64,000 nt of DNA, from positions 18,222 to 82,221 of IMG/VR virus record IMGVR_UViG_3300028654_000014; one strand, 5' to 3'. Of this stretch, positions 28,839 to 61,013 are shown in pieces. Position numbers and translations under genes: made by a program. The notes below the pieces were generated by a model. It did not search any database and had not been told where the DNA came from. It saw only the letters and a program-made list of their open reading frames with translations. This DNA is from a virus. Every line of letters starts with the position of its first letter. Position 1 is the first letter of the stretch.

Positions 28839-28885
28839 TTAAAATCCTGTTATCATGCATAACTATAGTTGTTAACTTCATAAAC

Positions 28886-29396: not shown

Positions 29397-32300
29397 TTAA
29401 CGATAAGCCCTTGAACTTTGACCAATTTCACCTGTCAAAGTAATTCCAAAAAGAGAATATTTTTCTCTAGCAATTGAATGAGTAAATTGACAATTTAAAT
29501 ATCTACATCTTTGAACATCTCTAGGAATATAAGTTCTTGATGGAGCAGAATTTGATGCCCCACCAAAAAATCCATAACCAAATCCTGTTGGACCTGGAAC
29601 TCCATGAACTGAAGCAGGAATTCCTGTATAACCAAATATACCATTACCTGTACCAAGTACTGGAACATCAATAAAAGATGGTAATAGATCACTAGAAAAA
29701 CTTAAAGTTGCAGAAGTAAAAGCTTTATTTTCAAACATTGTTGTTGCTTCACGAACATGTTTTAAATTTAATGGATCACCAAAAGTTTGAGGTGCCCATT
29801 GAATATTTGATTTAATAGATTTAAAAATAGTCAAAGGACCAATAAGAAAATCTAATTTGTTGTTTAAAGTAACTCTTTTATTTGAAATATTAACCTTTGT
29901 AATAATAGCTTCTTGTAAAGTATTATTTACTATTTGTTGATAATTATTAAAAGCAGTACCAGTATCATTATTTAAAGTTAAAATCATTCCATTGTAAGAA
30001 GATTCAATATCTGCAAAATCATTGTTATTTACAGTTAAACTTCCAGTAGTACCTGCAACTTGTACTGATACTGGAATAGTAAATGTATTAGAAGTAAGAA
30101 CAGTTACAGGATAAGTTCCATCAATATTAGGAACAGAATCACTACCACTAATTGTAATTATTCTTCCACTTGTTAAGTTATGAGCACCAAATGTTGTAAT
30201 TACAGTAGGATCACTAGCAGAAATACCAGTAATAACTACTACAGAATTATTAGATTCATAAACAGTATAACTTGAACCAGGATCAGCTCCAGGTTGAGCT
30301 AATCTTCCAGCATCTGTAGCAATTTTAGCCAATAATAAATCTAATTGATTTCTAGCATTTCCACCAGGAAGTAATTGTAGAGTAGAAAAATAATTCCTAT
30401 CAGTTAAAAATACATCACTATCTAATTTAGTTAATAAAGTATTAAATTGAAAGATAGAAATAGTTTGATCTTGAGTTAAAACATCACCTACTGCAAAATC
30501 AGCAATATTACTAAATAATATTTGATCACCAAAATAATCACCAGCAACTAAATTTTGTGTTAATTCACGATCAGCATAATCATAACGATCAAAATCTTTT
30601 CTTTCTTGTTCTAAGAAATCAGTATCACCAGCTCCTAAATATTGTCTATCATTAAATGAATTAATAACACCACAAGTATCAGTTTTATCAAAAGTTGTCC
30701 ATGTATTAGTTAAAGTACTAAATCTATAACCAATAGTAGCTAAAAGATCAGTTGTCTCTTGAACTGTATAAACTGTATATGAATTATCAGATTCATAACC
30801 AATTCCCCAAGTAGCTGATTTAAAATTTGTATATTGTTCTGTTGCAAGTTTTAAAATATCAATATCAATTGGACGAGAAACAATATTAACACCAGATTCA
30901 GAAGTTGAAGTAATACCCTGAGTAGTCCATCCATAAATTAAATTATTAGATACATCTAAAGAATCAGGAGCCAATAAAATACAGCTACTATCAAATAAAG
31001 CAAGATTAAAAGGAGCAGTTTCTCCACTGATTCTAAATAATCCATCTTCTTTATAAACAAATAGACTATCTCTTAAAGGAAATATTCTAAGAATTGCTTT
31101 ATCTTTTGCACCAACATCAATTGTATTTACTAATGGTACAGCATCAGGTTGTAATATTTTAGAAAAATATATTCTATTAGGTAATACTTCATTATCAGAA
31201 GTTACAGCAGTTGTAATATTTATCAAAGCACCTCTAGTTCCAGCAACCGTTACATTTACAGGAATAGAGAAAGATGTAGGACTTATATATGAAATAGTCC
31301 AAACTCCATTAACTGAAGGAGTTGAATTAGAATTAGTGATCATTACTTGATTTTGATTAATAAGTCCATGAGGAGTTGAAGTTGTAATTACAGTAGGATT
31401 AGCAATTGAAATTGAACTTATTTGAATAGTAGGACTAATATCGGGATTAAAAGACAATCCTGTTTGAGAATTATTTCCAACAATAAAAAAGGGACTATTA
31501 GTTAAAGATCTAGCTTCAAATAATATTTGACCAGGAACACCTGTAGGACCTGAAAGATAATAAGCATAAATAGGAGAATTAGGATCTCTATTAATAATAT
31601 CAATTAAGCTTCTAGCAGTTTGATCAACAGCTTGTGCAGGACTTATAACATTTGATAATAGTATTTGATTTAAAGAAGGATCAGCTCCAACTCCAGGAGT
31701 TAAAACGCTTGAAGTAAATCCAGAAGTACCATTAGTAGGAGCAGCAGCACTTCCTTCATTGATATTAGTAACTGTAATATGATTTGTAGAAAATACTGAA
31801 GTAAAATCTTGAACAATTGTATTAATAACATTACTTGTTTTTATAGCAACAGTATTAGCCGAATCATTTGTTACAAGATCAACTAATACTCCAGTTTTAT
31901 TAGCTACAAGAGGATCAGTTCCAACTCCATTAACTTTATACCAAATATAATAAGAAGTTGTATCATTAGCATCATTGATTGTAAAATATTTCCCAGCTAA
32001 ATTACCTGAAACATCTGCTACTGTATTAATTTGAACAATTTGTGCAACTCCAAGAACGAAAGTATATGTAGTTGTAGTAGTGCCATCAGACAATGTAATT
32101 GTTGGAATTGTACCTGCATTAATTTCAGCAATCATTTGTTCTACACCTAATAAACTAATATCTAATCTTTGACGAGTACGAGTATTAGCATAAAACATGA
32201 CATTCTTAAAATTGTTAATATCTAATGCAAATGGAGGTAAATCATTTGCTTGTAAAATACCTTCACCAGTTGTAGCATTTGTATATAGAAAAGCTCCAGC

Positions 32301-37216: not shown

Positions 37217-37237
37217 AAGTATAGTTGTTAATATCCT

Positions 37238-43489: not shown

Positions 43490-43972
43490 TTAACTATTTG
43501 TAATAGATTTAGCTTGATATGAAATAATACCGTTATGAGCAGTTCCAGCTAATAAAACAGATGAAAATTGAACTTGACCAATATCGGTAATATTAAAACT
43601 AACTTGAGCATCACCAACTAATTCTTGACTTATTTCCCATTTACTATTTGTAGGATTTGTAGCATTATAATTAATAAATATTTGACCTGTTTCAGTTGCA
43701 GTAACAGATGATGTATTTCTATAAACAGAATAGGTGATGATAGCACCTTGGACATTACTACTTGGAAAAGTAAGATTCGGCAAACTAACATTTGTATTAG
43801 CATTGGAAGTCATTACGAAGATTTGAGATGGTACATCATAAGGTCCAGCGAAGGAATTTAATGTATTTTGAATGGCTTGGAATGCTTCGATTATTGCTGG
43901 TGCCCAGTTGGGACTTTCCCCAGATGAGGGAATATTAATCGTAGTTCCACCGATTATTATTGGAATTGACAT
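43490..43972 (-). CDS. virion structural protein
   Basis: Beta-rich; inside the virion operon. Confidence 0.55.
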   Translation of the reverse strand: MSIPIIIGGTTINIPSSGESPNWAPAIIEAFQAIQNTLNSFAGPYDVPSQIFVMTSNANTNVSLPNLTFPSSNVQGAIITYSVYRNTSSVTATETGQIFINYNATNPTNSKWEISQELVGDAQVSFNITDIGQVQFSSVLLAGTAHNGIISYQAKSITNS

Positions 43973-44532
43973 TACTTTTTAACCTCTAAAATACTACAAT
44001 ATTTATTTGACTTTTTAATATTATGAATCTTCCATAAAGGTTGTAAATTCTTGTAATTATTAACTTTTAAGAATTCTTCCCTAATAGTTAAATCAACTTT
44101 ACTTAAAGGGATAATATGATCTAATTCCCACTTACCATAATTATCCCACGACATACCTTCTGTGAATTGTTTTTCTAAATGAATCTTTAATTCATCTATA
44201 GAACATCCCAAATCCTTTACAGCTGATCCTGCCTTTTGATTTTGTTTTAAAGCATGATAAAGCCGACTTCTTAAATTATGAGCTAATCTGAAGTTTGTAT
44301 TAATCTTACGATGTTCTTTAACATATATTTTTCTATAATTTTTGACTTTTTCTTTATTATTTTTTATATATTTTTTAACATATGTATATTTATTATTATT
44401 TTGTTTCTGATATTCAGCTTTTTTTAACTTAAAACATGATTTACAATCATATCTAAAACCATCTTTAGATTGCTTATAACGATAATATTCTTTATAATCT
44501 TTTAAATTATTACATGTTTTACAGATTTTCAT
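43972..44532 (-). CDS. HNH homing endonuclease
   Basis: CKTC..CKSC; LGCSIDELKIHLE, WELDHIIPLS, NLQPLW..NIKK. Confidence 0.85.
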   Translation of the reverse strand: MKICKTCNNLKDYKEYYRYKQSKDGFRYDCKSCFKLKKAEYQKQNNNKYTYVKKYIKNNKEKVKNYRKIYVKEHRKINTNFRLAHNLRSRLYHALKQNQKAGSAVKDLGCSIDELKIHLEKQFTEGMSWDNYGKWELDHIIPLSKVDLTIREEFLKVNNYKNLQPLWKIHNIKKSNKYCSILEVKK

Positions 44533-44619
44533 CCTACTTATAGTTGTTAACTGTATATTTGATAAAAAATAAAGAATTTTTTGTATATTAAGTAGTTGAT
44601 TTTATTAAAGAATTTAGAT

Positions 44620-44674: not shown

Positions 44675-45922
44675 TTAGTTAGAATTCACTACGTTGATTA
44701 TAATCGTATTTCGTCCTGGAGCCATACAAAAAACAGCCTGGTCAGAATACAATCGTAATTCATAAGCAGCAGCATTCTCTAGATCTCTAAAGAATTCTTC
44801 ACCTTGTCCAGGACGTTTAAAGGTCATGTCAGTTGAACCAACACGGAACCATTCGTCAAGACTTAGTACATAAGAATAGCCTTCTTTTACATAAATAGAA
44901 GGTTCGATCTCGATTTCACCATTTTGAGAGTGAAACAAGATTGAACTTGATCCATTTTCAGCTTTTGAAGAACTATAGCTGGAATCATACTTACGGAGAG
45001 CAGCTTGATCAGAAAGCATATTAGCCCATGCACGAGGATTGCAAAGAGATAATACACGACCGTCCAAACCTTTCTCAACTGCTCTAGCTACTGCTTGATT
45101 CAACTTTGTGAAGCTGAGCGCACCAGATTGAGCATCATATTGATTGCCACGGAAGAGATTATAATTCCCTACATCGATATTAAACAAAATACCTGAACTG
45201 ATTGTCAAGATTTTGTGAATACCAGGGAATTCATTACCGAAAGCACCTTTATGCCAAATAATATCTGTAGCGATAACACTTGGAATAGCAGATGTAAGGG
45301 TAATTGTTCTAAGAGTCATATCAACAGATTGAACTACAGAAGAACCACGACTTGTAGCACCTGTAGAATCTCTGATTTCAATTGGCATACCTTCAGCACC
45401 GGCCCAGATACCTGGTGCCCATTCTGGGGTAGAGATTGTAATAACAGCTCCAGCAACGGAACCTACTACACCATAACCAATTTGACCATAAAGCATTTCG
45501 ATTTCAAGCTTTTTAGCCATTGATCGAAGCATGTTTGCAACAAGAAACTTTGTAGCATCCATGAAAGCTTTTTGTCCACCAAGAGCTGCACGAGAAGCAG
45601 CAGCATAACCGAGTAAAGATCTCAAAACAACGGGATTACCGCGAATTTGAGCATCTTTTACTTGACCAGCTACAGGAGCATTCAAATTGAATGCATCTTC
45701 ATCTGAAGCAGCAAATGTAACACCATGCTCTAATCCGAGGATTACAGGTTGATGATACAAATTACCTGGTTGTTTTTCTTTCGACATAAATTTAATTTTA
45801 TTTAACAGTTTTACTCCATCTGGGATAAGTTCTTTAAGCTTATCAGCATATGTTTCTTTGAAAAAACCGTTAAGTGTACCAACCGAATTATTCGGGGTAC
45901 CAAACGTATTTGCAGTTGCCAT
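44675..45922 (-). CDS. major capsid protein
   Basis: 415 aa, downstream of the scaffold, followed by a terminator; codon usage shifted as for a highly expressed gene; HK97-like C-terminus. Confidence 0.8.
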   Translation of the reverse strand: MATANTFGTPNNSVGTLNGFFKETYADKLKELIPDGVKLLNKIKFMSKEKQPGNLYHQPVILGLEHGVTFAASDEDAFNLNAPVAGQVKDAQIRGNPVVLRSLLGYAAASRAALGGQKAFMDATKFLVANMLRSMAKKLEIEMLYGQIGYGVVGSVAGAVITISTPEWAPGIWAGAEGMPIEIRDSTGATSRGSSVVQSVDMTLRTITLTSAIPSVIATDIIWHKGAFGNEFPGIHKILTISSGILFNIDVGNYNLFRGNQYDAQSGALSFTKLNQAVARAVEKGLDGRVLSLCNPRAWANMLSDQAALRKYDSSYSSSKAENGSSSILFHSQNGEIEIEPSIYVKEGYSYVLSLDEWFRVGSTDMTFKRPGQGEEFFRDLENAAAYELRLYSDQAVFCMAPGRNTIIINVVNSN

Positions 45923-45942: not shown

Positions 45943-46410
45943 TTAATTACCATCTACAACAGAGTATTCGACTTCTAAACATAAATCGGAACTTGTTGAA
46001 GCAAAACTTGGAACACCACTAACACTTAGCATCATATTGCCTGATATTGAAACGCCTGTACTAGAAACAGAACCTGTATCGATATGACCAGAGTAACTTG
46101 TTCCTAATATACGACTTTTCACTACACATTGCATTACTTTTGCAACTTTTTCACCAACAACAACCAAGATATTTAGTTGACCACTAGAATCACTTGGAGA
46201 TTGATTAGCGAATGCCGCAGCAGCTATTGAGTCAGCAGCTGTAATTTGATTAACACCTTGGCTTTGTAAGAACAAAACACTCGGCTCATCATTAGAAAGA
46301 AGTACGCTTGCAGGTGTTGCACTAGCCGTTACAGAAAACGGAATAGTCAACTTTTGGACCTTTAACTGTCGGTCCATTGCGAGCGAACTTTTCGCATAAA
46401 AATCTGACAT
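45943..46410 (-). CDS. capsid decoration-like protein, paralog 1
   Basis: DRQLKVQKL N-terminal motif shared with the next two genes. Confidence 0.55.
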   Translation of the reverse strand: MSDFYAKSSLAMDRQLKVQKLTIPFSVTASATPASVLLSNDEPSVLFLQSQGVNQITAADSIAAAAFANQSPSDSSGQLNILVVVGEKVAKVMQCVVKSRILGTSYSGHIDTGSVSSTGVSISGNMMLSVSGVPSFASTSSDLCLEVEYSVVDGN

Positions 46411-46615
46411 TCTTTTCTTCCTTCTATAAAAATTATTGTTTATAACATTTTTTTACTATAAACGCTAATTTCAGATCACCGATATTCTTACTCTGCTATA
46501 AACAGGTTATAAGAAGTCTAAGACAGAACTACGTTTAAATTTCTTAGATATAGTTGTTAAATATATCTATTTCTAAGCTTTTTATTGTATAAGTTATTGA
46601 AATTATTATATATTT

Positions 46616-46960
46616 TTATAAATGTTCAATAACACTATATTTTACTATTAAAAGATCATTAGCAGCTAAAGATGCTAAACCTGTGATCTTAATTGCACCT
46701 AAATTACTAGGAGCAGCGTTTGTAAGTGAAGAAGAATCAACGATTGACAAGCTAGATTGAGCAAATTCAGTCCAAGTATTTGAACCGTCTACTTTTACTC
46801 TAGCAAGAAAGATCTTTTCTAGTGGCTCACGAATAAATACAAACATATTTCCACCGGAAATACTGTATAAACCTTGATCGGCACCACTCATTGACAATTC
46901 TTGAACTCTTAACGATTGTTGCATCGTTTGTTCATTTTTAGGATTAAATCCTACTGACAT
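46616..46960 (-). CDS. capsid decoration-like protein, paralog 2 (minimal form)
   Basis: MSVGFNPKNE..LRVQEL; colinear with 46986-48263 minus its inserts. Confidence 0.6.
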   Translation of the reverse strand: MSVGFNPKNEQTMQQSLRVQELSMSGADQGLYSISGGNMFVFIREPLEKIFLARVKVDGSNTWTEFAQSSLSIVDSSSLTNAAPSNLGAIKITGLASLAANDLLIVKYSVIEHL

Positions 46961-46985
46961 CTTATTTCTCCTTTAAAAGAATTTA

Positions 46986-48263
46986 TTAAACGTTACGATT
47001 TGCTGGATCTGTTGGTTCACTAACTATATATTTTACAACAGCTAGATCATTTGCATTAAAAGCTGAACCTGGAAGTCCCAACAATCTAATTGCACCTGCG
47101 TCACTAACAGGATATTTCCTATCAACATAACCTTGATTTCCAGATACTGTAACATTTACAGGAATAGAAAAAGTAGTTGGACTTAAAACAATAACTTGTT
47201 GATAGCTATTAATACTTGGTGTTGAATTAGAATTAGTTATATAAACTATTTGACCAGTAATCATATTATGAGGATATGAAGTTGTAATTACGGAAGGATT
47301 AGCAGCACTAATACTTGAAATTTGTAGTAATTGATCATCAACAATAACAATTTCAGCTTGATTGAAATCGTACATTGTATTTGATGCGTCAACTTTACAA
47401 AAAGCATTAGAAACCTTTTTAACTGGTTCACGAACATAGATTGTAAGATCAGTTGATGGTGAAGAAGTACTACCACTAATAGCAATAATTGTACTTATGT
47501 TACTAACAGTAATAGCAGCATTTAATGCTATTAAACTACCATTAATTGTTGCACTTTGAGTTACAGTGATACTAGTATTTGCAATAATGTTACCATTAAA
47601 TACAGCTCCAGTACTTGCTACAGATTGATTGATCGTAGCTGAACTTCCAACAACGAAATATACGTTTTTAGCTAAAGCACCACCAGTTAAAGCAATAACA
47701 GGAAGATCAGTACTACCTGAAGCTCCAGTTAAAAGAGTAGAAGCTGTATAAATAACAAATCTTCCAGGACCATTAAGAGTAAGTGTGCTATGTCCACTTG
47801 TTAGTGAAATACCAGCACTACCAGATGCAAATTGAAAAGCAACAGTTGCACCAGCAACAGGTGAATTTAAAGTTTGTCCACCAAGTTCAGATGGAATTGT
47901 AGTTCCAGCTAAACCTAAAGTTTGTAATGCGGTAAATGCAGAAGAAGCAGCATTTTGAGCAGCAAGAGCAGCTGCATTACCAAGATCAGTAGAACCTGAA
48001 ACAGTAAATGATCCAGTAACGGTACTACCAGGAGATTCTCCTAAATTACCAGTTACAACTGAAGTTCCAACACTATTTGTTATTGCAACTGCTGCTAAAA
48101 TACCATATCCACCAGCAACACCCATATAAGGATCACTAGTTATGATAGGAGCACCAGGAGCCGTTGAATAAAGACCATAATCTAACCCACTTACAGCTAA
48201 TTCCTGAACTTTTAATTCTCTATCTAATATTAATTCATTTTTAGGATTGAAACCTACAGACAT
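46986..48263 (-). CDS. decoration-like protein carrying a DUF3494 ice-binding-like domain
   Basis: YGILAAVAITN..TSVVTGNLG, AALAAQ, ELGGQTL, LTGGALAKNVYFVVGSSATI, FNGNIIANTSIT..TINGSLIA. Confidence 0.75.
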   Translation of the reverse strand: MSVGFNPKNELILDRELKVQELAVSGLDYGLYSTAPGAPIITSDPYMGVAGGYGILAAVAITNSVGTSVVTGNLGESPGSTVTGSFTVSGSTDLGNAAALAAQNAASSAFTALQTLGLAGTTIPSELGGQTLNSPVAGATVAFQFASGSAGISLTSGHSTLTLNGPGRFVIYTASTLLTGASGSTDLPVIALTGGALAKNVYFVVGSSATINQSVASTGAVFNGNIIANTSITVTQSATINGSLIALNAAITVSNISTIIAISGSTSSPSTDLTIYVREPVKKVSNAFCKVDASNTMYDFNQAEIVIVDDQLLQISSISAANPSVITTSYPHNMITGQIVYITNSNSTPSINSYQQVIVLSPTTFSIPVNVTVSGNQGYVDRKYPVSDAGAIRLLGLPGSAFNANDLAVVKYIVSEPTDPANRNV

Positions 48264-48465
48264 TTTAATCTCCTTAAAAATTATGTTTATTTAACTTTAT
48301 TACTTGAAAAATGTCCCTACTCTGTATATCAGGTAATAAGGAGTAATTAAGTAGTACTTTAATTTCCTATAATATAGTTGTTAACTAGAAATTTTTAAAA
48401 TAACTTATACTTTATTCTTCAGAAAATACTAATAAAATCAATAACTTAAGTAATAACACGATTTC

Positions 48466-49467
48466 TTATACGCCTTTGAAGAAATCTTTAAAGCTAATTT
48501 TCTTTTCCTCTTTTTTAGGCTCAGAAACTTTACCAGTATTAGGTACTTTAGAACCTGATTTTAGAGCAGGATTATTACCAGCCTGTTTTACTTTTGCTAC
48601 TGACTTCTTTCTTAAACGATTAAGAACATCTTTTCCAATAAAATCTTCAAGATCATCTTCTGACATTGAAGCTAGGATTTCAGAATAATCATTTTTAAGA
48701 TCTTCGCGAATTAAAGGGATAATATCTTCAGGAGTAACATCTTTTCCAGCTTCAAGACCAATTAACATATAATCAGCCATTCTTTTGATAATTGCTGGAT
48801 TTTTAGGAACATTATGTTTTTCTAATGCTTGAGACATTAACATATCATAACGCTCATATTCTTGTTCTTTAAGACGTTCCAATTCCTTTTGATTACCTTC
48901 ATTCTTTTCTCTTTCACGTTGTTCTTTTAATTCACTAAGTTCTAATTGAAGTTTTTCTTTTTCAAGTTGTTCTGGAGATTTTTTAGAATTTGCAATCTCT
49001 TCTTCCATAATTTCAACAGCAAATTTCTTTAAATCCATTCCAATAGCAGGATCAGAAAGAGCTTTTCTTGGATTCTTTCTTAAATCTTCAATAAATTGTA
49101 GAACTTCTTTTTCAATAGAAGCTTTTTCTTGGGCACGTTTTTGACCCATTCTTCCCATTTGTAATTCTCTACGCATATATTCAATTGCTTTAGGATCGTT
49201 AGGAATTTCAAAAGGAAGTTCTTCTTCATATTCTTGACCATCAATTTTTAAAGTTAATTTCTTTAAAAACTTTTCAGCTGCTTTTTTCTCTGTTTTTGAA
49301 GCATTTGGATTCTTTAAAACAGATTTAGCTTCAGCAGCAATAGCTTGAGTTGGAGGATTTGATTGTTGATTACCATCCTGGGAATTTCCAGCTACAGCAT
49401 TTTCAACTTGATCTCCTAAACCTGATATTGAGTCTTGTACGGATGTACTTTGTGATTCGTCTGACAT
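48466..49467 (-). CDS. scaffolding protein
   Basis: LKIDGQEYE motif, charged coiled coil; between portal/fibre genes and the capsid gene. Confidence 0.7.
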   Translation of the reverse strand: MSDESQSTSVQDSISGLGDQVENAVAGNSQDGNQQSNPPTQAIAAEAKSVLKNPNASKTEKKAAEKFLKKLTLKIDGQEYEEELPFEIPNDPKAIEYMRRELQMGRMGQKRAQEKASIEKEVLQFIEDLRKNPRKALSDPAIGMDLKKFAVEIMEEEIANSKKSPEQLEKEKLQLELSELKEQREREKNEGNQKELERLKEQEYERYDMLMSQALEKHNVPKNPAIIKRMADYMLIGLEAGKDVTPEDIIPLIREDLKNDYSEILASMSEDDLEDFIGKDVLNRLRKKSVAKVKQAGNNPALKSGSKVPNTGKVSEPKKEEKKISFKDFFKGV

Positions 49468-49605
49468 ATTTTCTCCTTTTCAGTCTAACTTTAGCTAGAT
49501 ATGAAAATAGTTAATCGTCCCGTAATTGGGATAGATTCTTAATTAGAGTTGTTAATTTAACATTTTAATAAAAGTAAAGTGATTAGTAATTTGAATTTTA
49601 GTATT

Positions 49606-49985: not shown

Positions 49986-51194
49986 TTATAAATCTTGTTG
50001 AACTATTACACCTAAACCTTGACCACCACCAGTAGCAAGTATAGCAGCTGGAGCAGCAACAGTTATACCAACATCATTAATTTCTTCAGAAACCATATTG
50101 TCAGAACGTATTAAAAATATTCTTCCTCCACCGCCTCCAGCTCCTCCACCACCGCCAGTACCTGTTGTAATACTATTACCACCAAACCCATTACCACCCG
50201 CTCCACCATTACCACCAGAAGCAGATAAAGCATTTAATACTAAAGGTCCAGATAATGTTTTATATGCAATATAAATATATCCACCGCCTCCACCACCACC
50301 TCCAGAACCACCACCAGTAACTCCAGCAGAAGCACCATTGGAACCGTTTCCACCATTACCACCATTTGCTTGAAAAACGTTAGAAGGAGTAGAAGAACTT
50401 TTTATAATATTTCTAGCATATAAAGCTATAACTCCACCACCGTTACCACCAGCTCCACCTGCTCCACCAGCATTTGTACCATCTCCACCACCAGAAGAAC
50501 CACCACGTCCACCTGCTCCACCATTTATTAATGTTACTCCAGCAAGAAAATTTGTTGTCCATGTTCTAATATCTTTTGGAGTAGGAGTAGTTGCAACACC
50601 AGCTGCTCCACCAGCATTAGTTCCAGCTCCTGCAACAGCAGAAGCTCCACCAGGTCCACCTCCACCAGTAATAGCACCACCAGCAGTACCAGCTGAACCT
50701 GCACCTGTACCAGAACTAGCTCCAGCACCACCTTGACTACCTACACCAATTGAACCTGCAACAGGAAGAGTAGGAGCTGTACCTCCTGTAGTTCCAGAAG
50801 CATTTCCACCATTTAAACCGTTTACATTTATTGCTCCAGCTTGAGCATTTGAAATATCTAAATTATTTAAAACAAATATTCTATAACCATTAGGATTTAA
50901 AACTCCTGTTCCAGAAAGAGTTAAATTGTTGTAATACATATCTCTTGTTAAAGTTGTTGTTCCTGAAGAAATTGTAATATTACCATCAGAACCATCACCA
51001 TAACTTTGTGATATTGTTGAAACTGCTGGACCAGATGAAGCGGCATAAGATAATCCTGTCCAAGCTGTAACTCCATCTCCAAATTTAAATTTTCCAGTAT
51101 CAGATTCAAGACCTATTTCACCTTGAGCTAATATTGGATTTGTTGAAGTCCATTGAGCTGCTGTACCATTTCGAAGTTCTATGTGATATGCCAT
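49986..51194 (-). CDS. Gly-rich fibre/receptor-binding protein, paralog 4
   Basis: Mtd_N-like IELRNGTAAQWTSTNPILAQGEIGLESDTGKFKFGDG plus polyGly domain. Confidence 0.75.
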   Translation of the reverse strand: MAYHIELRNGTAAQWTSTNPILAQGEIGLESDTGKFKFGDGVTAWTGLSYAASSGPAVSTISQSYGDGSDGNITISSGTTTLTRDMYYNNLTLSGTGVLNPNGYRIFVLNNLDISNAQAGAINVNGLNGGNASGTTGGTAPTLPVAGSIGVGSQGGAGASSGTGAGSAGTAGGAITGGGGPGGASAVAGAGTNAGGAAGVATTPTPKDIRTWTTNFLAGVTLINGGAGGRGGSSGGGDGTNAGGAGGAGGNGGGVIALYARNIIKSSSTPSNVFQANGGNGGNGSNGASAGVTGGGSGGGGGGGGYIYIAYKTLSGPLVLNALSASGGNGGAGGNGFGGNSITTGTGGGGGAGGGGGRIFLIRSDNMVSEEINDVGITVAAPAAILATGGGQGLGVIVQQDL

Positions 51195-51195
51195 T

Positions 51196-52416
51196 TTATA
51201 AACTCACTTGTACGATGTTACCAGCGCCACCTGCGCCACCAGTTCCAGCTGATTGAGCAGAACCAGCACTACCTGCTGAACCAAAAGATTCAGATCCTGT
51301 TCCATTTAATATATTTAATAATGTAACTCTACCACCTGATCCACCAGTACCTCCAGCTCCTCCAGATCCTACTGTTGAACTAGCAAATCCAACACCATTT
51401 CCACCTGTACCACCTGTACCACCAGAAGCTGATAAAGCATTTGTTGCAGTAGATCCAGTTAAAGTATTATAAATTACAAATACCCATCCACCACCTGAAC
51501 CTCCACCACCGCCCCCACCACCGGCAATACCAGTTGTAGGAGTTCCTCCAGCACCACCATTACCACCCAATGCTGAAATAGCGTTAGCAGCAGTAGATCC
51601 ACCACGTTTTATTATATTTGCATATAAAGCTAATACTCCACCGCTATTACCAGAAGCTCCTCCTCCTCCACCTTTATTAGTACTATCACCGCCTCCACCG
51701 CCTCCTGATCCTCCACTAGCTCCACCACTAATAAGTGTTATACCTTTAATTAAATCAATTGCCCAACGTCTAATTGATAAAGAAGCTGTTACAGTTCCAC
51801 CAGCAGCACTAGTACCACCTGCATTACTATTTCCAAAACCACCTGATCCACTAGCACCACCCGCTCCACCATTTCCTAATGCAGCAGTAGTACCAACAGT
51901 ACCTATTGTACCTGTTGTAAGTTGACCAGCACTACCAACTATACCAATAGAAGCTCCACCAATATTTCCAGCAGCTTGAGCAACAGGAGCAGTTCCACCA
52001 GTTCCATTTGCTTGTCCTGCTCCACCCATATTTCCATTAAAATTTATTGCTGAAGCTCCGGCAGCTGTAATATCTAATGTACCAGCTACAAATAATCTAA
52101 AACCTGCTGTGTATATTTGACCTGTACCACTAATCGTTAAATTATTAAAATATATATCTCTTGTTAAATTTAAAATACCAGCAGTTAATGTTATATTACC
52201 ATCTGATCCATCACCAAATGATTCTAAATCTTGTGTAGGAGCTGCACCGCTAACACCACCATATGATAAAGTTGAATAAGTTGAAGAACCATCACCAACT
52301 TTATAATTTCCAGTATCTCTTTCCCATCCAATTTCACCTTGAGCTAATATTGGATTTAATAAATACCAATCTGATTTAGTATCATTTCTTATTTGTATTT
52401 GAGAATTAACAGCCAT
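51196..52416 (-). CDS. Gly-rich fibre/receptor-binding protein, paralog 3
   Basis: Same architecture as its paralogs. Confidence 0.75.
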   Translation of the reverse strand: MAVNSQIQIRNDTKSDWYLLNPILAQGEIGWERDTGNYKVGDGSSTYSTLSYGGVSGAAPTQDLESFGDGSDGNITLTAGILNLTRDIYFNNLTISGTGQIYTAGFRLFVAGTLDITAAGASAINFNGNMGGAGQANGTGGTAPVAQAAGNIGGASIGIVGSAGQLTTGTIGTVGTTAALGNGGAGGASGSGGFGNSNAGGTSAAGGTVTASLSIRRWAIDLIKGITLISGGASGGSGGGGGGDSTNKGGGGGASGNSGGVLALYANIIKRGGSTAANAISALGGNGGAGGTPTTGIAGGGGGGGGSGGGWVFVIYNTLTGSTATNALSASGGTGGTGGNGVGFASSTVGSGGAGGTGGSGGRVTLLNILNGTGSESFGSAGSAGSAQSAGTGGAGGAGNIVQVSL

Positions 52417-52417
52417 T

Positions 52418-53623
52418 TTACAAACTCACTGAAAAATTGTTAAGACTTGCACCAGCTCCAGGAGTATTTCCTAAAGCAGTACCACCAAATGCTCCTGCTG
52501 AACCTGTAGAATCAGATGATGTTGAATTTAAAACATTTACTAAAGTTATTCTTCCACCAGAACCACTTCCACCACCATTACCACCAGCACCTGTACCAAA
52601 ACCTTGTCCACCTGATCCTCCAGCTCCACCAGCAGCTTGTAAAGCATTTGTTGCAGTTGAACCGATTAAACTATTATAAAATATAATAATCCAACCTCCA
52701 CCACCACCAGCTGATCCTCCTCCTCCACCAGTATTTCCTATACTATTCATTCCACTTGATCCACCAGTACCACCATTTGCTTGAATAGAAAATTGACTTG
52801 TACTTCCACCTCTATTTATTATATTTGCATAAATAGCAATTAATCCTCCACCATTTGCACCTGATCCACTGGCTCCAGATAGATTAACACCATCGCCACC
52901 ACCACTTCCACCAGAAGCACCACCTATTCCTGGTCTTATTAATGTTGTATTTCTTAATAATTCAGTTTCATATCTTCTAATTGGAAGAGATAAAGATCCT
53001 GTACCACCAGTACCACCATTTCCACCAGTATTTGTAGCTGAAGCTCCACCTGATGCACCATTACCACCATTACCACCATTTACAGGACTAGCATTTGCTG
53101 AAGAATTTCCAGTTGTACCTGTTGTTGTTGAACCAGCTACTCCAGCTACTCCAGTTGTTGGACCACCTAATGATTGAGAAGGTTGTGCTGCGGGAGCAGG
53201 ACCCGCTGTAGATGTTCCGATACTTATACCATTATTACCATTCCAACTAATTGCACCTTGAGCTGCTGCTGTAATATCTAAAGTTCCAGATACAAATATT
53301 CTGTATCCATTTGTTATTAAAGTTCCAGTACCATTAATAGTAAGATTATTATAATACATATCTCTTACTAAAACTGTAATACCTGAACTGATTGTTACGT
53401 TACCATCTGAACTATCACCAAAGAATTTAAAAACATTTGAAGATGCTGGTCCAATTAAACCACCATAAGATAATGCAGTCCAAGTTGAAGTAGCATTAGG
53501 ACTAATTTTATATTTACCTGTATCAGTTTCTAAACCAATTTCACCAGCAGCTAATACAGGATTAACTGAAGTCCAATTTGCTGCGGTATCTCTTCTAATT
53601 TGTATTATTCTTGAAGCTGGCAT
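52418..53623 (-). CDS. Gly-rich fibre/receptor-binding protein, paralog 2
   Basis: Same architecture as its paralogs. Confidence 0.75.
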   Translation of the reverse strand: MPASRIIQIRRDTAANWTSVNPVLAAGEIGLETDTGKYKISPNATSTWTALSYGGLIGPASSNVFKFFGDSSDGNVTISSGITVLVRDMYYNNLTINGTGTLITNGYRIFVSGTLDITAAAQGAISWNGNNGISIGTSTAGPAPAAQPSQSLGGPTTGVAGVAGSTTTGTTGNSSANASPVNGGNGGNGASGGASATNTGGNGGTGGTGSLSLPIRRYETELLRNTTLIRPGIGGASGGSGGGDGVNLSGASGSGANGGGLIAIYANIINRGGSTSQFSIQANGGTGGSSGMNSIGNTGGGGGSAGGGGGWIIIFYNSLIGSTATNALQAAGGAGGSGGQGFGTGAGGNGGGSGSGGRITLVNVLNSTSSDSTGSAGAFGGTALGNTPGAGASLNNFSVSL

Positions 53624-54852
53624 TATAAATTCACCCGCATAATATTACCAGCACCACCTGTTGTACCTAATGTAGTTGTTGCTGTGACTGCTGCCGATCC
53701 TGCTGATCCTATTGAATCTGTACTTGTATTATTTAATAAATTATATAAAGTTACTCTTCCCCCACCACCGCCAGTACCACCTGTACCACCAACAGCACCA
53801 GCACCAGCTGCTGAACCATTTCCACCGTTACCACCATCACAACTTAAAGCACCTGTAGCAGTTGAACCAGTGAGAGTATTATAGACTAAATATATCCATC
53901 CTCCACCGCCTCCACCACCACCTCCACCGCCTCCAGAATTTGCAGTAGGAGTTCCACCACCATTACCACCAGTAGCACCATCAACATTTATAACTTCAGA
54001 TCCAGTACTTCCACTTCGATTTATTATATTTGCCCAAATTCCAATAACATTACCACCAGCACCACCGCCTCCTCCACCACGTCCAGTAGCACCACTTGTA
54101 CCACCACCACCTGATCCTCCAGAACCGCCAGTTCCTCCTATAAGAAGATTAGAACTTTTTAATAAATCAATTTCATAACGTCTAATTGGTAATGCTGTAT
54201 TTGTTCCGATAGATCCAACAGTTCCTCCAGTATTGGCACCAGCAGTTCCACCAATACCACCAGCTCCTCCTGAACTTCCATTTGCAAAAGCTACAGCAGC
54301 AACGTTACCACTAGCACCACCTTGAGTATTAACTCCACCAGCTCCTCCAGCACTACCAGCACCATTAGTTCCTAAAGTATTAGGAGCACTAGCAGCACCA
54401 CCAACAGCACCAGCAGTAGATGCTGAACTAGCTCCAGCATTTGCATTATTAATTATTGAAAAACTTCCAGCAGCACTTATATCTAATGTACCAGCTACAA
54501 ATATTCTAAAACTATTTGTATTTATAGAACCAGAACCACTAATTGTTAAATTATTAAAATAAGCATCTCTAGTTAAGACACCAAAATTTAAAGGTCCTGA
54601 TGATGTAAAATTTGATACAACATTTAAATTTCCATCACTAGCATCACCAAAGAATTTAAATATTTGAGTATTAGCCGGACCAATCATTCCACCATAAGAA
54701 AGTGAATTCCAAGCGATATTATCATCAAGACCAATTTTATAAAGTCTTGTGTCAGTTTCTAAACCAATCTCTCCTTCAGCAAGAAAAGGATTTGCAGCAG
54801 TCCATTGAGCTGCTGTACCTTGTCTTACCGTTAAAAGAGTACTTCGAGGCAT
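53623..54852 (-). CDS. Gly-rich fibre/receptor-binding protein, paralog 1
   Basis: Same architecture as its paralogs. Confidence 0.75.
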   Translation of the reverse strand: MPRSTLLTVRQGTAAQWTAANPFLAEGEIGLETDTRLYKIGLDDNIAWNSLSYGGMIGPANTQIFKFFGDASDGNLNVVSNFTSSGPLNFGVLTRDAYFNNLTISGSGSINTNSFRIFVAGTLDISAAGSFSIINNANAGASSASTAGAVGGAASAPNTLGTNGAGSAGGAGGVNTQGGASGNVAAVAFANGSSGGAGGIGGTAGANTGGTVGSIGTNTALPIRRYEIDLLKSSNLLIGGTGGSGGSGGGGTSGATGRGGGGGGAGGNVIGIWANIINRSGSTGSEVINVDGATGGNGGGTPTANSGGGGGGGGGGGGWIYLVYNTLTGSTATGALSCDGGNGGNGSAAGAGAVGGTGGTGGGGGRVTLYNLLNNTSTDSIGSAGSAAVTATTTLGTTGGAGNIMRVNL

Positions 54853-54855
54853 AAA

Positions 54856-56169
54856 TTAAGGAGTTCCTCCGACAATAACCTGAGCGGCTGTATAAAGAGA
54901 AGCAGCAGTACCACCATCAATATTATTATTTGCAATAGCTGTTGCAAAACTTAAATTACCAGAACCATCATTTTGTAAAAATGTTCCTATTGCTCCTTGA
55001 GATGAAGGAAGAGTTAATGTATAACTTGTAACTGTTGAAGGTGCTGTAACATTTACTGTACCAGAAATTGATCCATAAAATTTTGTATAACCTGTGTATA
55101 TACCACTTCCAACTTGTAACGAATCAACTCCATTATCTGTAACTGTATCAATGAGAACATTTCCTGTTGAATTTATTCTCATACGTTCAGTAGCTGTTAC
55201 TGATCCTGTTGGAGTTGTAGAAAATGCTAAATAAGTTGCATTAGAAGTATTTGTAAATGTTTCACCTGCTGTAATAGTTATAACTCCAGTACTTGCAGCA
55301 GCGAATTGTGATGTTCCATATCCTCTACCACTATATACTGATAAATTATCACCAGATTGAACAGCGGAAGGAGATAAAACAGTTCCTCTAGCAAATCTTC
55401 CTCTAAATGGAACAGATGATCCTACACCATAAGCAGTTGATTGAATAGGTTTTGCTATTCCATTCGCATTTACAATATCTAAAGATGTTGTTGTTCCTGG
55501 AATAGTATTAAGACCTAAAGTAAAATTAGTATCATCCCAGAAAAATTTAGAATTATCTTGAGTTAAAGAAGTACCATTTGAAAATATAACAGAACCAGCA
55601 GTATAAGCAGAACTATTATTTGTTCCACCATTTGCAATAGGAATAATTCCACTTAAAGATCCAGCTGGTAAATTAGTTAGATTACTACCATTAATTACAC
55701 CAAAAGTTCCACCAGATATTTGAGAACCTGAAAGAGCTAAAGATGATGCTGATGTTAAAGCTGATAATGTAGTTAAAGTTGAATTTGATGTTGCTGTAAT
55801 ATTTGAAGCAGTTCCTGTAATAGATCCAGAAGGAATAACATAATCAGTTCCAGCTGAAGCTGCACTAATTGCTGTACCATTTCCTTTTAATAAACCTGTT
55901 ATTGAAGTTGAAACTGTAATAGCTGGAGTTGTAGTTGGATTTGAAACTGTTCCAGAAAAACCATTAGCACTTACAACTGAAACATTTGTTACTGTTCCAC
56001 CTGCTAAAGTACTTGATATTGTAATTGTATTTGCTACAGATGTTACTGTAATTCCACTACCGGCAGCAATTGTTATATTAGGTCCAGGTTGACCATTAAT
56101 ACCTGTGATAGTTCCACCACCACCTCCACCGCCCGTATCACTGGGGATGTTAATAAAAATATCACTCAT
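54856..56169 (-). CDS. tail fibre protein
   Basis: PIANGGTNN, TERMRINSTGNV, YTLTLPSSQG fibre motifs. Confidence 0.7.
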   Translation of the reverse strand: MSDIFINIPSDTGGGGGGGTITGINGQPGPNITIAAGSGITVTSVANTITISSTLAGGTVTNVSVVSANGFSGTVSNPTTTPAITVSTSITGLLKGNGTAISAASAGTDYVIPSGSITGTASNITATSNSTLTTLSALTSASSLALSGSQISGGTFGVINGSNLTNLPAGSLSGIIPIANGGTNNSSAYTAGSVIFSNGTSLTQDNSKFFWDDTNFTLGLNTIPGTTTSLDIVNANGIAKPIQSTAYGVGSSVPFRGRFARGTVLSPSAVQSGDNLSVYSGRGYGTSQFAAASTGVITITAGETFTNTSNATYLAFSTTPTGSVTATERMRINSTGNVLIDTVTDNGVDSLQVGSGIYTGYTKFYGSISGTVNVTAPSTVTSYTLTLPSSQGAIGTFLQNDGSGNLSFATAIANNNIDGGTAASLYTAAQVIVGGTP

Positions 56170-56547: not shown

Positions 56548-58638
56548 TTATTTATTCGAAACATTACCCATTGCTGCTTGTTGAATTGCAGGATTTGCCA
56601 ATAAATGAGCTGGAACTTTTGCAGGTCCGGCTGGATTTATATGAGTAATTCCAACACCTTGGGGAGCTGGACCAGCAACGGTTTGACCAGCTTCAGGACT
56701 CATCATAGGAGCTACGTTTGTTTGAGGAGCATTTCCTTGAGGTCCTGGTCCACCATTAGGTTGTCCCCCTGGAGGATTATTATTGTTTGGTTGAAGAGGA
56801 GGTAAAGCTTGTTCACCTCTCATTTGTAATAAAGCAGGATCAGTATTCCTTAAAGCATTCATATGAGCTTCAATATGGTCCATAACAATTTTTACAAGGT
56901 TTGGATCATTTCTAAGATCAGGATCAGCAATAACAGCAGAATGTTCATCAATATGAACACTATGTTTATCCATTGGTGATACTAAAGGATTCTTACCTTC
57001 GAGCAATTCTTCATTTTCTTTTTTAATTAACATTAAATCATCAACTTCACCTTCAAACATTGCTTCTAGTTTTCCAGTATTGATAACTTGAAAGTATTGC
57101 TGGGGATTTTTAATAATCTTCATTTGCATCATTTGTTCGGCCATTTGAACACGACCTGCAATTGTTCTTGATAAAGGATTACCCATATCAACTACAACAC
57201 GATTGATAGCAGAAATCTTTTCGCCAGTAAATTCTTTTAGTAATGGACGATTATTTTTACCAACAAGTGTAATAACTTTAGGAGTATTGGCAAAATCTTT
57301 TAATATTTGAATAACAGCAGTACCAACATCTTCTACTAATTTTACATAATTTTGTTGAAGTCCAGAAATAAATTGTAATGCTTGAGATTGAACAAGAGCT
57401 AAAGCTGTTCCTGATTTTAAAGAAGCTTCAGGATTTCCTCTAGCAACACTATTAACTCCTGAAATTGTTTCAGCAGCTTGAATAAGCATATCTAAAAATT
57501 TAAATATCTCAGCAGGAGTTTGAGTAAGATTTAATGCTTCAGGTTTCTGAGGAGATTCAATAATATTCATTGCTCCTTCAAGATTACTAATAGATATATC
57601 AGCACCCCTTGGCATCCAAACATTCTGAACACCAAAAGCATTTTGATTAGTCATAATAGTTCCATAAAGAGAATTAATACCCTCTTGAATTGGAAAAATA
57701 TCAAACATTGGTGTATAACCATAAGGTGTTCCTAAAATTTCACTAGGAACAATTCTAAATACAGGAATAGTTCTATAAGGTAATTTAGCATCAATTAAAA
57801 CAACATCTGAATCTAAAAATAACATATATCTACCATCAGGCATTGATTCAGTTTGTTTATGGAAAAATTCATATACTGCAATATCATCAGTATCATCATT
57901 AGACCAAATTGCTAATCTAAAAGTTGTTCCTTGATTCTTTGGAGGTAATGCTTTAATTTTATCAGCATATTCAGGATACTTAGCCATTAAATCGAAACGA
58001 TTAACCCAATTACGAGTTAATAACCATTCATTATTCCAAGTTTCTTTAGTACCATCCATTACTACATCAAATGGTGTCATAGTTGAAAATTCTAATTCAC
58101 CTTCTCGAACAGGTTCATTAGTATCAGGATCAACTTCATAAATTTCACCAGCTGTTGCGTTCCAAGCTAACTTTACATAACCAGCACCTAAAACAACTGC
58201 CAATTCTGTAGCACGTTTTAAAGCATCTTCTAAATTCTTTTCTCTCATATAATAATCAAGAATTTGATTAGCAAGATAAGTTTGAGCATAAGATTTATAA
58301 TCAGTATTAATTGCTCTAGCTTCCATTGTTGGACGAGAAGAAGTAATCATTACATAAATATGCTGGGCTAAATTTCTAAAATGATTAATAGGAATTTGAA
58401 CTAATTCACCTTGTTCTCCAGTGAATTGAACTCTATGTCCACCACCGACATAATCATTTAAATAAGCACCATGATAAGCTCTCCACATATTTTGTAATTT
58501 CTCAAGATGATGATTAGATCTTAGAACATTAAAAAATGAATCAGCTTTTCCTAATAATATTCCAGCTGCGTCTTTTGCAGGTTTAGCTGCGAAATATACA
58601 TCATTAGGAGAACTAGATGAATTAAATGTATCTGCCAT
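56548..58638 (-). CDS. portal protein
   Basis: 696 aa directly after terminase; GYVKLAWN, ETISGVNSVARG, SGTALAL P22-like portal motifs. Confidence 0.88.
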   Translation of the reverse strand: MADTFNSSSSPNDVYFAAKPAKDAAGILLGKADSFFNVLRSNHHLEKLQNMWRAYHGAYLNDYVGGGHRVQFTGEQGELVQIPINHFRNLAQHIYVMITSSRPTMEARAINTDYKSYAQTYLANQILDYYMREKNLEDALKRATELAVVLGAGYVKLAWNATAGEIYEVDPDTNEPVREGELEFSTMTPFDVVMDGTKETWNNEWLLTRNWVNRFDLMAKYPEYADKIKALPPKNQGTTFRLAIWSNDDTDDIAVYEFFHKQTESMPDGRYMLFLDSDVVLIDAKLPYRTIPVFRIVPSEILGTPYGYTPMFDIFPIQEGINSLYGTIMTNQNAFGVQNVWMPRGADISISNLEGAMNIIESPQKPEALNLTQTPAEIFKFLDMLIQAAETISGVNSVARGNPEASLKSGTALALVQSQALQFISGLQQNYVKLVEDVGTAVIQILKDFANTPKVITLVGKNNRPLLKEFTGEKISAINRVVVDMGNPLSRTIAGRVQMAEQMMQMKIIKNPQQYFQVINTGKLEAMFEGEVDDLMLIKKENEELLEGKNPLVSPMDKHSVHIDEHSAVIADPDLRNDPNLVKIVMDHIEAHMNALRNTDPALLQMRGEQALPPLQPNNNNPPGGQPNGGPGPQGNAPQTNVAPMMSPEAGQTVAGPAPQGVGITHINPAGPAKVPAHLLANPAIQQAAMGNVSNK

Positions 58639-60813: not shown

Positions 60814-61013
60814 TATACACCTCAATATTTAATTTTTAGTAATAAAGACATTTTAAAGTGTTAGATACAAATCGGAAATCAATCCATCACCCCACTAGAG
60901 GTATTTATCGTTACTTCTGTCTTATTTATAGTTGTTAAGTGTAGAATTGCTGAAAAATCACTTACTTAGCCGTTTTTGGAATTTGATATTTACTTGTGTT
61001 AACAACTACTTAC

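What the first reader, a model, noticed from the sequence alone, without database searches (positions are those of the whole stretch)
46616..48263. Ice-binding-like DUF3494 domain grafted into a capsid decoration-like paralog
Seen: 46986-48263 aligns end to end with its 114-aa neighbour (MSVGFNPKNE..VQEL..GLYS / REP..K / GAI..GL..ANDL..VKY) apart from two inserts: a ~215-aa domain (about 47478-48122) with DUF3494 motifs and a ~65-aa repeat module. Established: DUF3494 beta-solenoids bind ice in cold-adapted microbes. Inference: the virion may display an ice- or surface-binding domain, aiding freeze survival or adhesion in cold habitats.
Basis: partly seen in the sequence, partly recalled or inferred. 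Interest (0 to 1): 0.78.

Follow-up and report, generated by a model that had tools for sequence, protein, structure and literature searches.

The report
Ice-binding-type domain on phage head protein
An uncultured 82-kb soil (rhizosphere) phage carries, next to its capsid gene, a small head-module protein into whose loops a genuine "ice-binding-type" (DUF3494) domain and a second small barrel domain have been spliced; related phages made such splices repeatedly, but neither capsid location nor ice binding has been shown.

Summary
ORF 46986-48263 (-, 425 aa) matches Pfam Ice_binding/DUF3494 (E 5e-22). It is collinear in three pieces with its 114-aa neighbour. Its predicted structure matches solved ice-binding proteins (TM 0.8). 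The second insert is an E1-FCCH-like barrel, 64% identical to a module in the phage's own 1650-aa late protein.

New here:
- The 155-aa gene directly upstream of the capsid gene is a third paralog.
- This small-protein family sits directly upstream of the major capsid gene in at least 66 of 80 related viral contigs.
- Every related contig with a domain-bearing copy also keeps a bare copy.
- DUF3494 has entered the family at several different positions and backbones.
- All five long family members checked carry DUF3494.

Reading: a capsid-surface accessory protein that displays an adhesin-type solenoid. "Decoration protein" rests on gene position only, because the core matches no known decoration fold. 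Ice binding is untested and doubtful. The DNA occurs in rhizosphere metagenomes, and DUF3494 is abundant in ordinary soils.

This scan earlier found DUF3494 domains in the baseplate and tail sheath of an unrelated 166-kb phage. This case extends that theme to the head module.

The parts
46986..48263 (-). 425-aa fusion gene: small beta-sandwich core carrying two inserted domains
   Evidence: ORF. AF2 model pLDDT 83.5. About 30 full-length homologs at 43-70% identity.
48132..48263 (-). Residues 1-44: conserved N-terminal arm (FNPKNE...LKVQEL) plus the first two core strands
   Evidence: 62% identical to the 114-aa paralog. The motif is shared across the whole family.
47478..48131 (-). Residues 45-262: DUF3494 / Ice_binding beta-solenoid inserted in the beta2-beta3 loop of the core
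   Evidence: Pfam E 5.3e-22. Foldseek 6eio E 1.3e-11 and 7bwx E 6.5e-11, TM 0.80-0.82. PDB phmmer 6eio E 1.1e-10. It is the most conserved region of the fusion, with mean pairwise identity 0.60, 61% T/S/A/G/N and 3% charged residues.
47343..47477 (-). Residues 263-307: middle strands of the core sandwich
   Evidence: BLASTP to the 114-aa paralog. Strands match between the two AF2 models.
47106..47342 (-). Residues 308-386: E1-FCCH-like beta-barrel inserted in the second variable loop
   Evidence: Foldseek UBA6/UBA1 FCCH E 1e-5 to 4e-4, including 2v31. PDB phmmer UBA6 E 1e-3. Absent from the 355-aa homologs. 64% identical to a module in the 1650-aa protein.
46986..47105 (-). Residues 387-425: last two core strands (…DL.VVKY.V.E)
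46616..46960 (-). Bare 114-aa paralog (beta-sandwich with N-terminal arm)
   Evidence: AF2 pLDDT 81.6. 33 homologs that co-occur with fusions on the same contigs.
45943..46410 (-). 155-aa third paralog, directly upstream of the capsid gene
   Evidence: hhalign end-to-end match, E 2.2e-4, probability 45%. Local jackhmmer joins all three paralogs. Family alignment A4.
44675..45922 (-). Major capsid protein
   Evidence: phrog_14242 major head protein, E 1.7e-9. More than 2,300 homologs.
48466..49467 (-). Scaffold-like protein (inferred from position, charge and a conserved …FKDFF.. C-terminus)
   Evidence: No family hit. Conserved position in relatives.
48373..48384 (-). TTAACAACTATA promoter-like 12-mer, 109 nt upstream of the 425-aa gene
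   Evidence: 8 copies, all on the - strand, against 1.46 expected.
46549..46560 (-). Second copy of the same 12-mer, upstream of the 155-aa gene and the capsid gene
31230..31427 (-). FCCH-like module in the 1650-aa late protein (residues 975-1040), 64% identical to the insert of the 425-aa protein
   Evidence: BLASTP E 1e-22.
30042..30233 (-). Second FCCH-like module in the 1650-aa protein (residues 1373-1436), 47% identical
   Evidence: BLASTP E 4e-15. Weak Pfam E1_FCCH hit, E 3.9e-4.

Best explanation
The 425-aa protein is an auxiliary copy of a small beta-sandwich protein that this phage clade encodes directly upstream of its major capsid gene. The family is most likely a capsid-surface accessory (decoration or cement-type) protein. 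It would anchor through the conserved N-terminal arm and sandwich core. Two solvent-exposed loops of the duplicated copy have received folded domains: a DUF3494 beta-solenoid and an FCCH-like barrel. The virion would therefore display a flat, uncharged, T/S/A/G-rich binding face, while the bare paralogs keep the basic structural role. The displayed solenoid probably works as an adhesin for a repetitive surface such as polysaccharide or matrix, mineral, or ice. That would hold particles in the host's microhabitat. Shown: the domain identities, the insertion topology, the paralogy, the synteny, and the recurrence and conservation of the insert. Inferred: capsid location, outward display, and any ligand.
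For: Domain identities.
Insertion into loops of a paralog.
Head-module context is TerL, portal, scaffold-like, the three paralogs, then MCP.
A family member lies directly upstream of MCP (or of its first exon) in at least 66 of 80 related viral contigs.
Only the four contigs with a domain-bearing copy have two members, so a bare copy is always retained.
DUF3494 is inserted at different sites: after about residue 40 of the 114-type, before the last strand in L041, mid-protein in L071, and at further positions in P0056, P0069, P0092 and P0119.
All five family members longer than 360 aa in the 1.84-billion-protein search carry PF11999.
The DUF3494 part is the most conserved part of the fusion.
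The protein has no N-terminal signal peptide and the domain is internal (sequence).
The gene has its own copy of the late-region 12-mer.
The FCCH-like module is shared with the phage's 1650-aa late protein.
In other phages DUF3494 sits in the tail sheath, another exposed virion surface.
Against: The core has no significant structural or sequence match to any known decoration or cement protein. The best VIA Z is 6.7 to neck/GTA chains, BFVD gives nothing at E<=1e-3, and there is no Pfam or PHROG hit. No virion proteomics or cultured relative exists; the closest cultured phage capsid protein is 27% identical. The inter-domain geometry of the model is uncertain (pTM 0.62). No ligand can be read from the sequence.
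Confidence: 0.5

Rival explanations
1. One reading: the capsid displays a true ice-binding domain that attaches virions to ice or protects them from freeze-thaw damage.
For: The closest solved relatives are all active ice-binding proteins (6eio, 7bwx, 3wp9, 4nu2). The composition is typical of ice-binding faces, with 61% T/S/A/G/N and 3% charged residues. Temperate soils do freeze seasonally (general knowledge).
Against: The DNA is held by runs labelled rhizosphere metagenome, with no icy habitat among them. PF11999 is abundant across soils in general. DUF3494 occurs in the tropics and hot springs and is thought to bind varied substrates (PMC7783341). Solved structures are biased towards proteins picked for ice activity.
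Confidence: 0.2
2. The family is a virion or assembly protein that is not on the capsid exterior. It could be a neck or head-completion protein, an internal head protein, or an assembly factor, with the inserted domains acting elsewhere.
For: The weak top structural matches are to neck and portal-tail complex chains: 8q01, 8hqo, 9ilp, 9k09, Z 5.4-6.7.
Against: Those scores are in the range of chance beta-sandwich similarity, as the tool notes say. The gene sits between the scaffold-like gene and MCP rather than after MCP, where connector genes usually lie. Large folded inserts in two loops are hard to reconcile with an internal or tightly packed neck position.
Confidence: 0.2
3. It is an auxiliary ('AMG'-type) gene: a phage-encoded ice-binding protein made to cryoprotect the host cell, as proposed for PF11999 genes in Arctic viral contigs.
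For: PF11999 genes on Arctic vOTUs were interpreted this way (PMC11515562).
Against: The protein has no signal peptide. The domain is embedded inside a conserved head-module protein. The gene lies between the scaffold-like gene and MCP behind a late-region motif. The same embedding recurs at different sites in paralogs.
Confidence: 0.05
4. The solenoid has no ligand. It is a rigid bulky module that stabilises or spaces the capsid lattice, or shields it.
For: Beta-solenoids are stiff and stable. The domain is conserved, but no binding site can be shown from sequence.
Against: The same domain is also placed in tail sheath and baseplate proteins of unrelated phages. That fits a surface-interaction role better than lattice cement.
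Confidence: 0.1

Closest known systems
Solved DUF3494 ice-binding proteins (EfcIBP 6EIO, AnpIBP 7BWX, ColAFP 3WP9, FfIBP 4NU2, SfIBP_1 6BG8)
   Same: They share the Pfam family and the predicted fold: a triangular beta-solenoid with one long alpha-helix (helix at residues 97-118). Foldseek E is 1e-11 to 1e-7 with TM up to 0.82, at 20-31% identity.
   Different: Those are secreted or cell-surface proteins of cold-adapted microbes with measured ice activity. This one has no signal peptide, sits inside a loop of a phage head-module protein, comes from rhizosphere samples, and has no measured activity.
Phage capsid decoration proteins encoded between scaffold and capsid genes or displaying extra domains (lambda gpD, SPP1 gp12, T4 Hoc/Soc, T5 pb10)
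   Same: It is a small protein encoded beside the capsid gene in the head module. It has a conserved N-terminal arm and outward-display-type extra domains. It evolves faster than the capsid protein. The comparison with the named proteins rests on established knowledge, not on a match found here.
   Different: No sequence or significant fold match to any of them was found. The family has no Pfam or PHROG model. The displayed domain is a DUF3494 solenoid rather than an Ig-like or collagen-like module.
DUF3494 insertions in tail sheath and baseplate proteins of a 166-kb soil/peat phage
   Same: The same domain family (45-57% identity) is spliced into an exposed virion structural protein.
   Different: It is a different phage lineage, a different host protein (sheath/baseplate against an MCP-adjacent small protein) and a different virion part (tail against the presumed head).
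Ubiquitin-activating enzyme E1 FCCH domain (PF16190) and FCCH-like modules of uncultured Caudovirales
   Same: The second insert has the same small beta-barrel fold.
   Different: It does not reach the Pfam threshold, it has no enzymatic context, and here it is a shuffled module shared with the phage's 1650-aa late protein.

Membership tests
DUF3494 / Ice_binding (PF11999) | Match to the family HMM above the curated cut-off | tested here: met
   79 bits against a cut-off of 28.7, E 5.3e-22, profile positions 1-204 of 208. 81.7 bits in the genome scan.
DUF3494 / Ice_binding (PF11999) | Triangular right-handed beta-solenoid with a long alpha-helix packed alongside | tested here: met
   Predicted model only: pLDDT is mostly above 90 in the domain, the helix spans residues 97-118, and TM is 0.80-0.82 to 6eio and 7bwx.
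DUF3494 / Ice_binding (PF11999) | Ice-binding activity (thermal hysteresis, recrystallisation inhibition, ice shaping) | not testable with these tools
   This needs recombinant protein. The habitat label (rhizosphere) gives no support.
Microbial secreted ice-binding proteins (functional class) | Export to the cell exterior (signal peptide or surface anchor) | tested here: not met
   The N-terminus is polar and charged, the domain starts at residue 45 and lies inside another protein (sequence). This was judged by inspection; no signal-peptide predictor was run.
Phage capsid decoration / cement proteins | Gene in the head module next to the major capsid gene | tested here: met
   The order is scaffold-like, 425, 114, 155, MCP. 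A family member lies directly upstream of MCP in at least 66 of 80 relatives.
Phage capsid decoration / cement proteins | Sequence or fold relationship to a characterised decoration family | tested here: inconclusive
   No Pfam or PHROG hit. Best VIA Z is 6.7 to unrelated neck/GTA chains. BFVD gives nothing at E<=1e-3.
Phage capsid decoration / cement proteins | Physical presence on the outside of mature capsids, bound to the capsid protein | not testable with these tools
   This needs virion proteomics or cryo-EM. No cultured relative exists.
E1 FCCH domain (PF16190) | Match to the family HMM above the cut-off | tested here: not met
   The 425-aa protein gives no PF16190 hit at E<=0.1. The related module in the 1650-aa protein scores 20.9 bits against a cut-off of 29.5.
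E1 FCCH domain (PF16190) | FCCH beta-barrel fold | tested here: met
   Foldseek to UBA6/UBA1 and 2v31 gives E 1e-5 to 4e-4. phmmer to UBA6 gives E 1e-3 over residues 311-368. This is fold-level likeness only.
Viral auxiliary metabolic gene (host cryoprotection) | Stand-alone host-type gene outside the structural modules, with a product that acts in or on the host cell | tested here: not met
   The domain is embedded in a head-module protein, behind a late-region motif, and has no export signal.

The most novel reading that the evidence does not exclude
A widespread clade of about 80-95-kb soil phages has repeatedly duplicated its capsid-adjacent small protein and spliced DUF3494 solenoids into it, at four or more different sites. 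Their heads would then be coated with functional ice-binding or surface-binding faces. That would be the first virion-displayed ice-binding proteins, giving particles ice adhesion or freeze-thaw protection in seasonally frozen soils.
Probability: 0.15. Interest if true: 0.85.

Novelty: new variant of a known kind. Interest (0 to 1): 0.62.

Why it matters
Phage-encoded DUF3494 genes have so far been read as auxiliary genes for host cryoprotection (PMC11515562). This locus, with its relatives, shows the domain built into a conserved head-module protein, and in other phages into sheath and baseplate proteins. That points to a structural, particle-surface role. It defines an uncharacterised capsid-adjacent protein family of 305 clusters at 50% identity. 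The family tolerates whole-domain insertions in its loops, and DUF3494 is its preferred cargo. If the domain binds ice or soil matrices, this would be a new way for virions to persist or stay positioned in soil. The small core would also be a natural display scaffold. The work gives a concrete, cheap test: express residues 45-262 and assay binding to ice, polysaccharide and mineral.

Tried and rejected
- Complex prediction with MCP (A3) and the 114-aa protein (A2) returned 'no answer' (score 0.00). This is no evidence either way.
- ESM Atlas gave no usable hit for the 114-aa protein.
- BFVD Foldseek for the 114-aa model found nothing at E<=1e-3.
- VIA wide and second-look searches gave Z<=6.7 with mixed beta-sandwich and neck chains. 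No known decoration fold was listed, which is not evidence that the folds differ.
- PHROGs gave no family for the 425-, 114- or 155-aa proteins.
- tblastn of the 425-aa protein against 50,697 phage records gave no match.
Co-occurrence of homologs on one contig was therefore inferred from equal contig lengths, and checked directly only in the viral-contig loci.
- The genome-contig scan for a donor found only 29-45% identical soil MAG proteins (Pyrinomonadaceae, Chitinophagaceae and others). No host or donor can be named.
- The listing of cluster members gave no organism names.
- The careful tree did not finish. The quick tree suggests the domains of the fusions are interleaved with those of other architectures (at least 6 changes forced), but many of the 'other' proteins turned out to be family fusions too. 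I draw no donor or order-of-events conclusion from it.
- Mapping of published ice-binding-site residues was not attempted, because no verified residue list was at hand.
- No tRNA gene was found for host inference.

Full report
**What the window is.** The window is the last 64 kb of an 82,221-bp IMG/VR virus record estimated 96% complete. It has about 30% G+C. The finding lies in a run of minus-strand late genes:
- large terminase, 58642-60135
- portal, 56548-58638
- several Gly-rich proteins (Mtd_N domain shown for 49986-51194)
- an acidic, lysine-rich scaffold-like protein, 48466-49467
- the 425-aa ORF, 46986-48263
- the 114-aa ORF, 46616-46960
- a 155-aa ORF, 45943-46410
- the major capsid protein (MCP), 44675-45922, phrog_14242

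**The observation.** It holds on each point.
- The 425-aa protein matches Pfam Ice_binding/DUF3494 at E 5.3e-22 (79 bits, cut-off 28.7) over residues 55-255.
- A clade-specific HMM extends the domain to residues 45-262, nt 47478-48131.
- BLASTP against the 114-aa neighbour gives three collinear pieces: 1-37 (62% identity, E 2e-13), about 272-302 and 387-416.
- AlphaFold2 models of both proteins (pLDDT 83.5 and 81.6) show the same eight-strand beta-sandwich with an N-terminal arm.
- In the long protein the solenoid sits in the beta2-beta3 hairpin. A second domain (about residues 308-386) sits in the loop before the last two strands.
- Foldseek matches the solenoid to solved ice-binding proteins: 6eio E 1.3e-11, 7bwx E 6.5e-11, target TM 0.80-0.82.
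- Foldseek matches the second insert to the FCCH domain of ubiquitin E1 enzymes (E 1e-5 to 4e-4). phmmer against PDB agrees.
- The second insert is therefore a single FCCH-like barrel, not a repeat.

**Origin of the second insert.** It is 64% identical (E 1e-22) to residues 975-1040 of the phage's own 1650-aa late protein (29397-34349). It is 47% identical to a second copy at residues 1373-1436. This module has been shuffled among this phage's late proteins.

**A third paralog and a family.**
- The 155-aa protein directly upstream of MCP aligns end to end with the 114-aa family profile (hhalign E 2.2e-4, probability 45%).
- It shares the N-terminal ..K..L...QLKVQ.L motif and the C-terminal L.V.Y.V.E strand.
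- I fetched 80 related viral contigs through the MCP profile (MCP 36-89% identical).
- A local iterative search from either the 155-aa or the 114-aa protein converges on the same 70 ORFs in 66 of the 80 loci. E-values are relative to this small set only.
- In the loci inspected the family member lies immediately upstream of MCP, or of MCP's first exon where the gene is interrupted.
- The members fall into two size classes, about 94-125 aa and about 147-197 aa.
- A profile search of 1.84 billion representative proteins finds only 305 clusters at E<=0.001, nearly all 94-197 aa.
- The family has no Pfam or PHROG model.

**Recurrent insertion.**
- Only four of the 66 loci have two family members. 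In each of these, one copy carries a large insert and the other is bare.
- L019: DUF3494 in the 114-type loop.
- L028: an FCCH-like barrel alone, in that same loop.
- L041: DUF3494 just before the last strand of a 150-type copy that is 65% identical to its bare neighbour.
- L071: DUF3494 mid-protein in a 171-type copy that is 53% identical to its neighbour.
- Further database homologs have the domain at yet other positions: P0056, P0069 and P0119 near residues 62-80, and P0092 and P0079 near residues 105-127.
- All five family members longer than 360 aa among the top 150 representatives carry PF11999 at E 1e-38 to 5e-63.
- So duplication followed by DUF3494 insertion has happened several times, and DUF3494 is the family's preferred cargo.
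- Within the 31 aligned fusions the DUF3494 part is the most conserved region (mean pairwise identity 0.60 against 0.51-0.55 for the core). It is 61% T/S/A/G/N and 3% charged. It is under constraint and is not a decaying passenger.

**Expression context.**
- The 12-mer TTAACAACTATA occurs eight times (six exact), all on the minus strand, against 1.46 expected.
- One copy lies 109 nt upstream of the 425-aa gene. Another lies upstream of the 155-aa/MCP pair.
It suggests the 425+114 pair is a separately promoted late cassette.
- A relative with 89% identical MCP (L018) lacks the cassette and goes straight from scaffold to the 150-aa gene to MCP.

**What the core is.** Homology does not tell.
- VIA-align against 48,161 PDB representatives gives at best Z 6.7 (phage 812 neck, GTA virion). 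That is in the range the tool describes as common arrangement.
- BFVD gives nothing at E<=1e-3.
- The 'decoration' label therefore rests on four things: the position between the scaffold-like gene and MCP, which is where lambda D and SPP1 gp12 lie (established knowledge); strict synteny with MCP across the clade; loop tolerance for whole folded domains; and much faster divergence than MCP.

**Ice or not.**
- The domain belongs to the family by sequence and predicted fold, but activity cannot be read from sequence.
- The DNA is held by at least 12 runs, all labelled rhizosphere metagenome and probably one campaign.
- The nearest genome-collection relatives are ordinary soil MAGs at 29-45% identity.
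- PF11999 is listed among the abundant Pfams across 1,512 soil metagenomes.
[quoted passage not shown] They suggest the proteins bind varied repeating substrates (PMC7783341).
- There is no signal peptide, which argues against a secreted host-protective protein of the kind proposed for PF11999 genes on Arctic viral contigs (PMC11515562).
- In two other viral contigs the same domain (45-57% identical) is inserted in tail sheath proteins (phrog_279).
- Earlier reports of this scan describe it in the baseplate and sheath of a 166-kb phage. BFVD holds DUF3494 folds in a giant virus, Hyperionvirus.
- The common thread is display on exposed virion surfaces.

**Verdict.**
- The architecture is a genuine, recurrent and conserved domain graft into a clade-specific MCP-adjacent protein family.
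- Capsid-surface display of an adhesin-type solenoid is the best reading (about 0.5).
- Specific ice binding is a minority possibility (about 0.2).
- The held literature has no description of DUF3494 in a phage head protein.

Noticed in passing
L056:3986-6083, also L063, L070, L072, L073, L076, L080, L084: In many relatives the major capsid gene is split into 2-4 pieces by 0.2-1.5-kb intervening sequences, often near the PGNLYHQPV motif. In L056 the gap holds a 228-aa ORF. These look like introns, possibly with homing endonucleases. The window's own capsid gene is uninterrupted.
   Followed up: partly
window 28864-28875, 37220-37231, 44539-44550, 46549-46560, 48373-48384, 49544-49555, 60927-60938, 63678-63689 (all - strand): The 12-mer TTAACAACTATA occurs 8 times (6 exact) against 1.46 expected. 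Every copy is on the strand of the late genes, and the copies examined lie upstream of gene starts. It is a candidate phage-specific late promoter or processing site.
   Followed up: partly
L002:5362-8178 and L005:5251-8184: These are tail sheath proteins (phrog_279) of 938 and 977 aa with a DUF3494 insert. Its HMM segments appear in permuted order (positions about 40-205 first, then 3-50), suggesting a circularly permuted or split solenoid.
   Followed up: partly
L028:3723-4334: A 203-aa family member carries only the FCCH-like barrel. It sits in the loop that holds DUF3494 in the window's protein, so the two cargo domains are interchangeable between sites.
   Followed up: partly
window 43972-44532 (-): An HNH/endonuclease VII-like gene (phrog_1035, E 7e-16) lies directly downstream of the capsid gene and is preceded by a copy of the 12-mer. 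It may be a homing endonuclease related to the capsid-gene interruptions seen in relatives.
   Followed up: no
window 49986-54852 (-): Four ORFs of about 400 aa lie here; a fifth, of 437 aa, lies at 54856-56169. Only 49986-51194 was examined, and it is Gly-rich with an Mtd_N start (E 6e-12). They lie between the portal and scaffold genes, an unusual place for fibre-like genes.
   Followed up: no
window 29397-34349 (-): A 1650-aa late protein with no PHROG hit and only a weak, below-cut-off Pfam E1_FCCH match contains two FCCH-like modules. Its role (tail fibre, internal protein or other) is unknown.
   Followed up: partly
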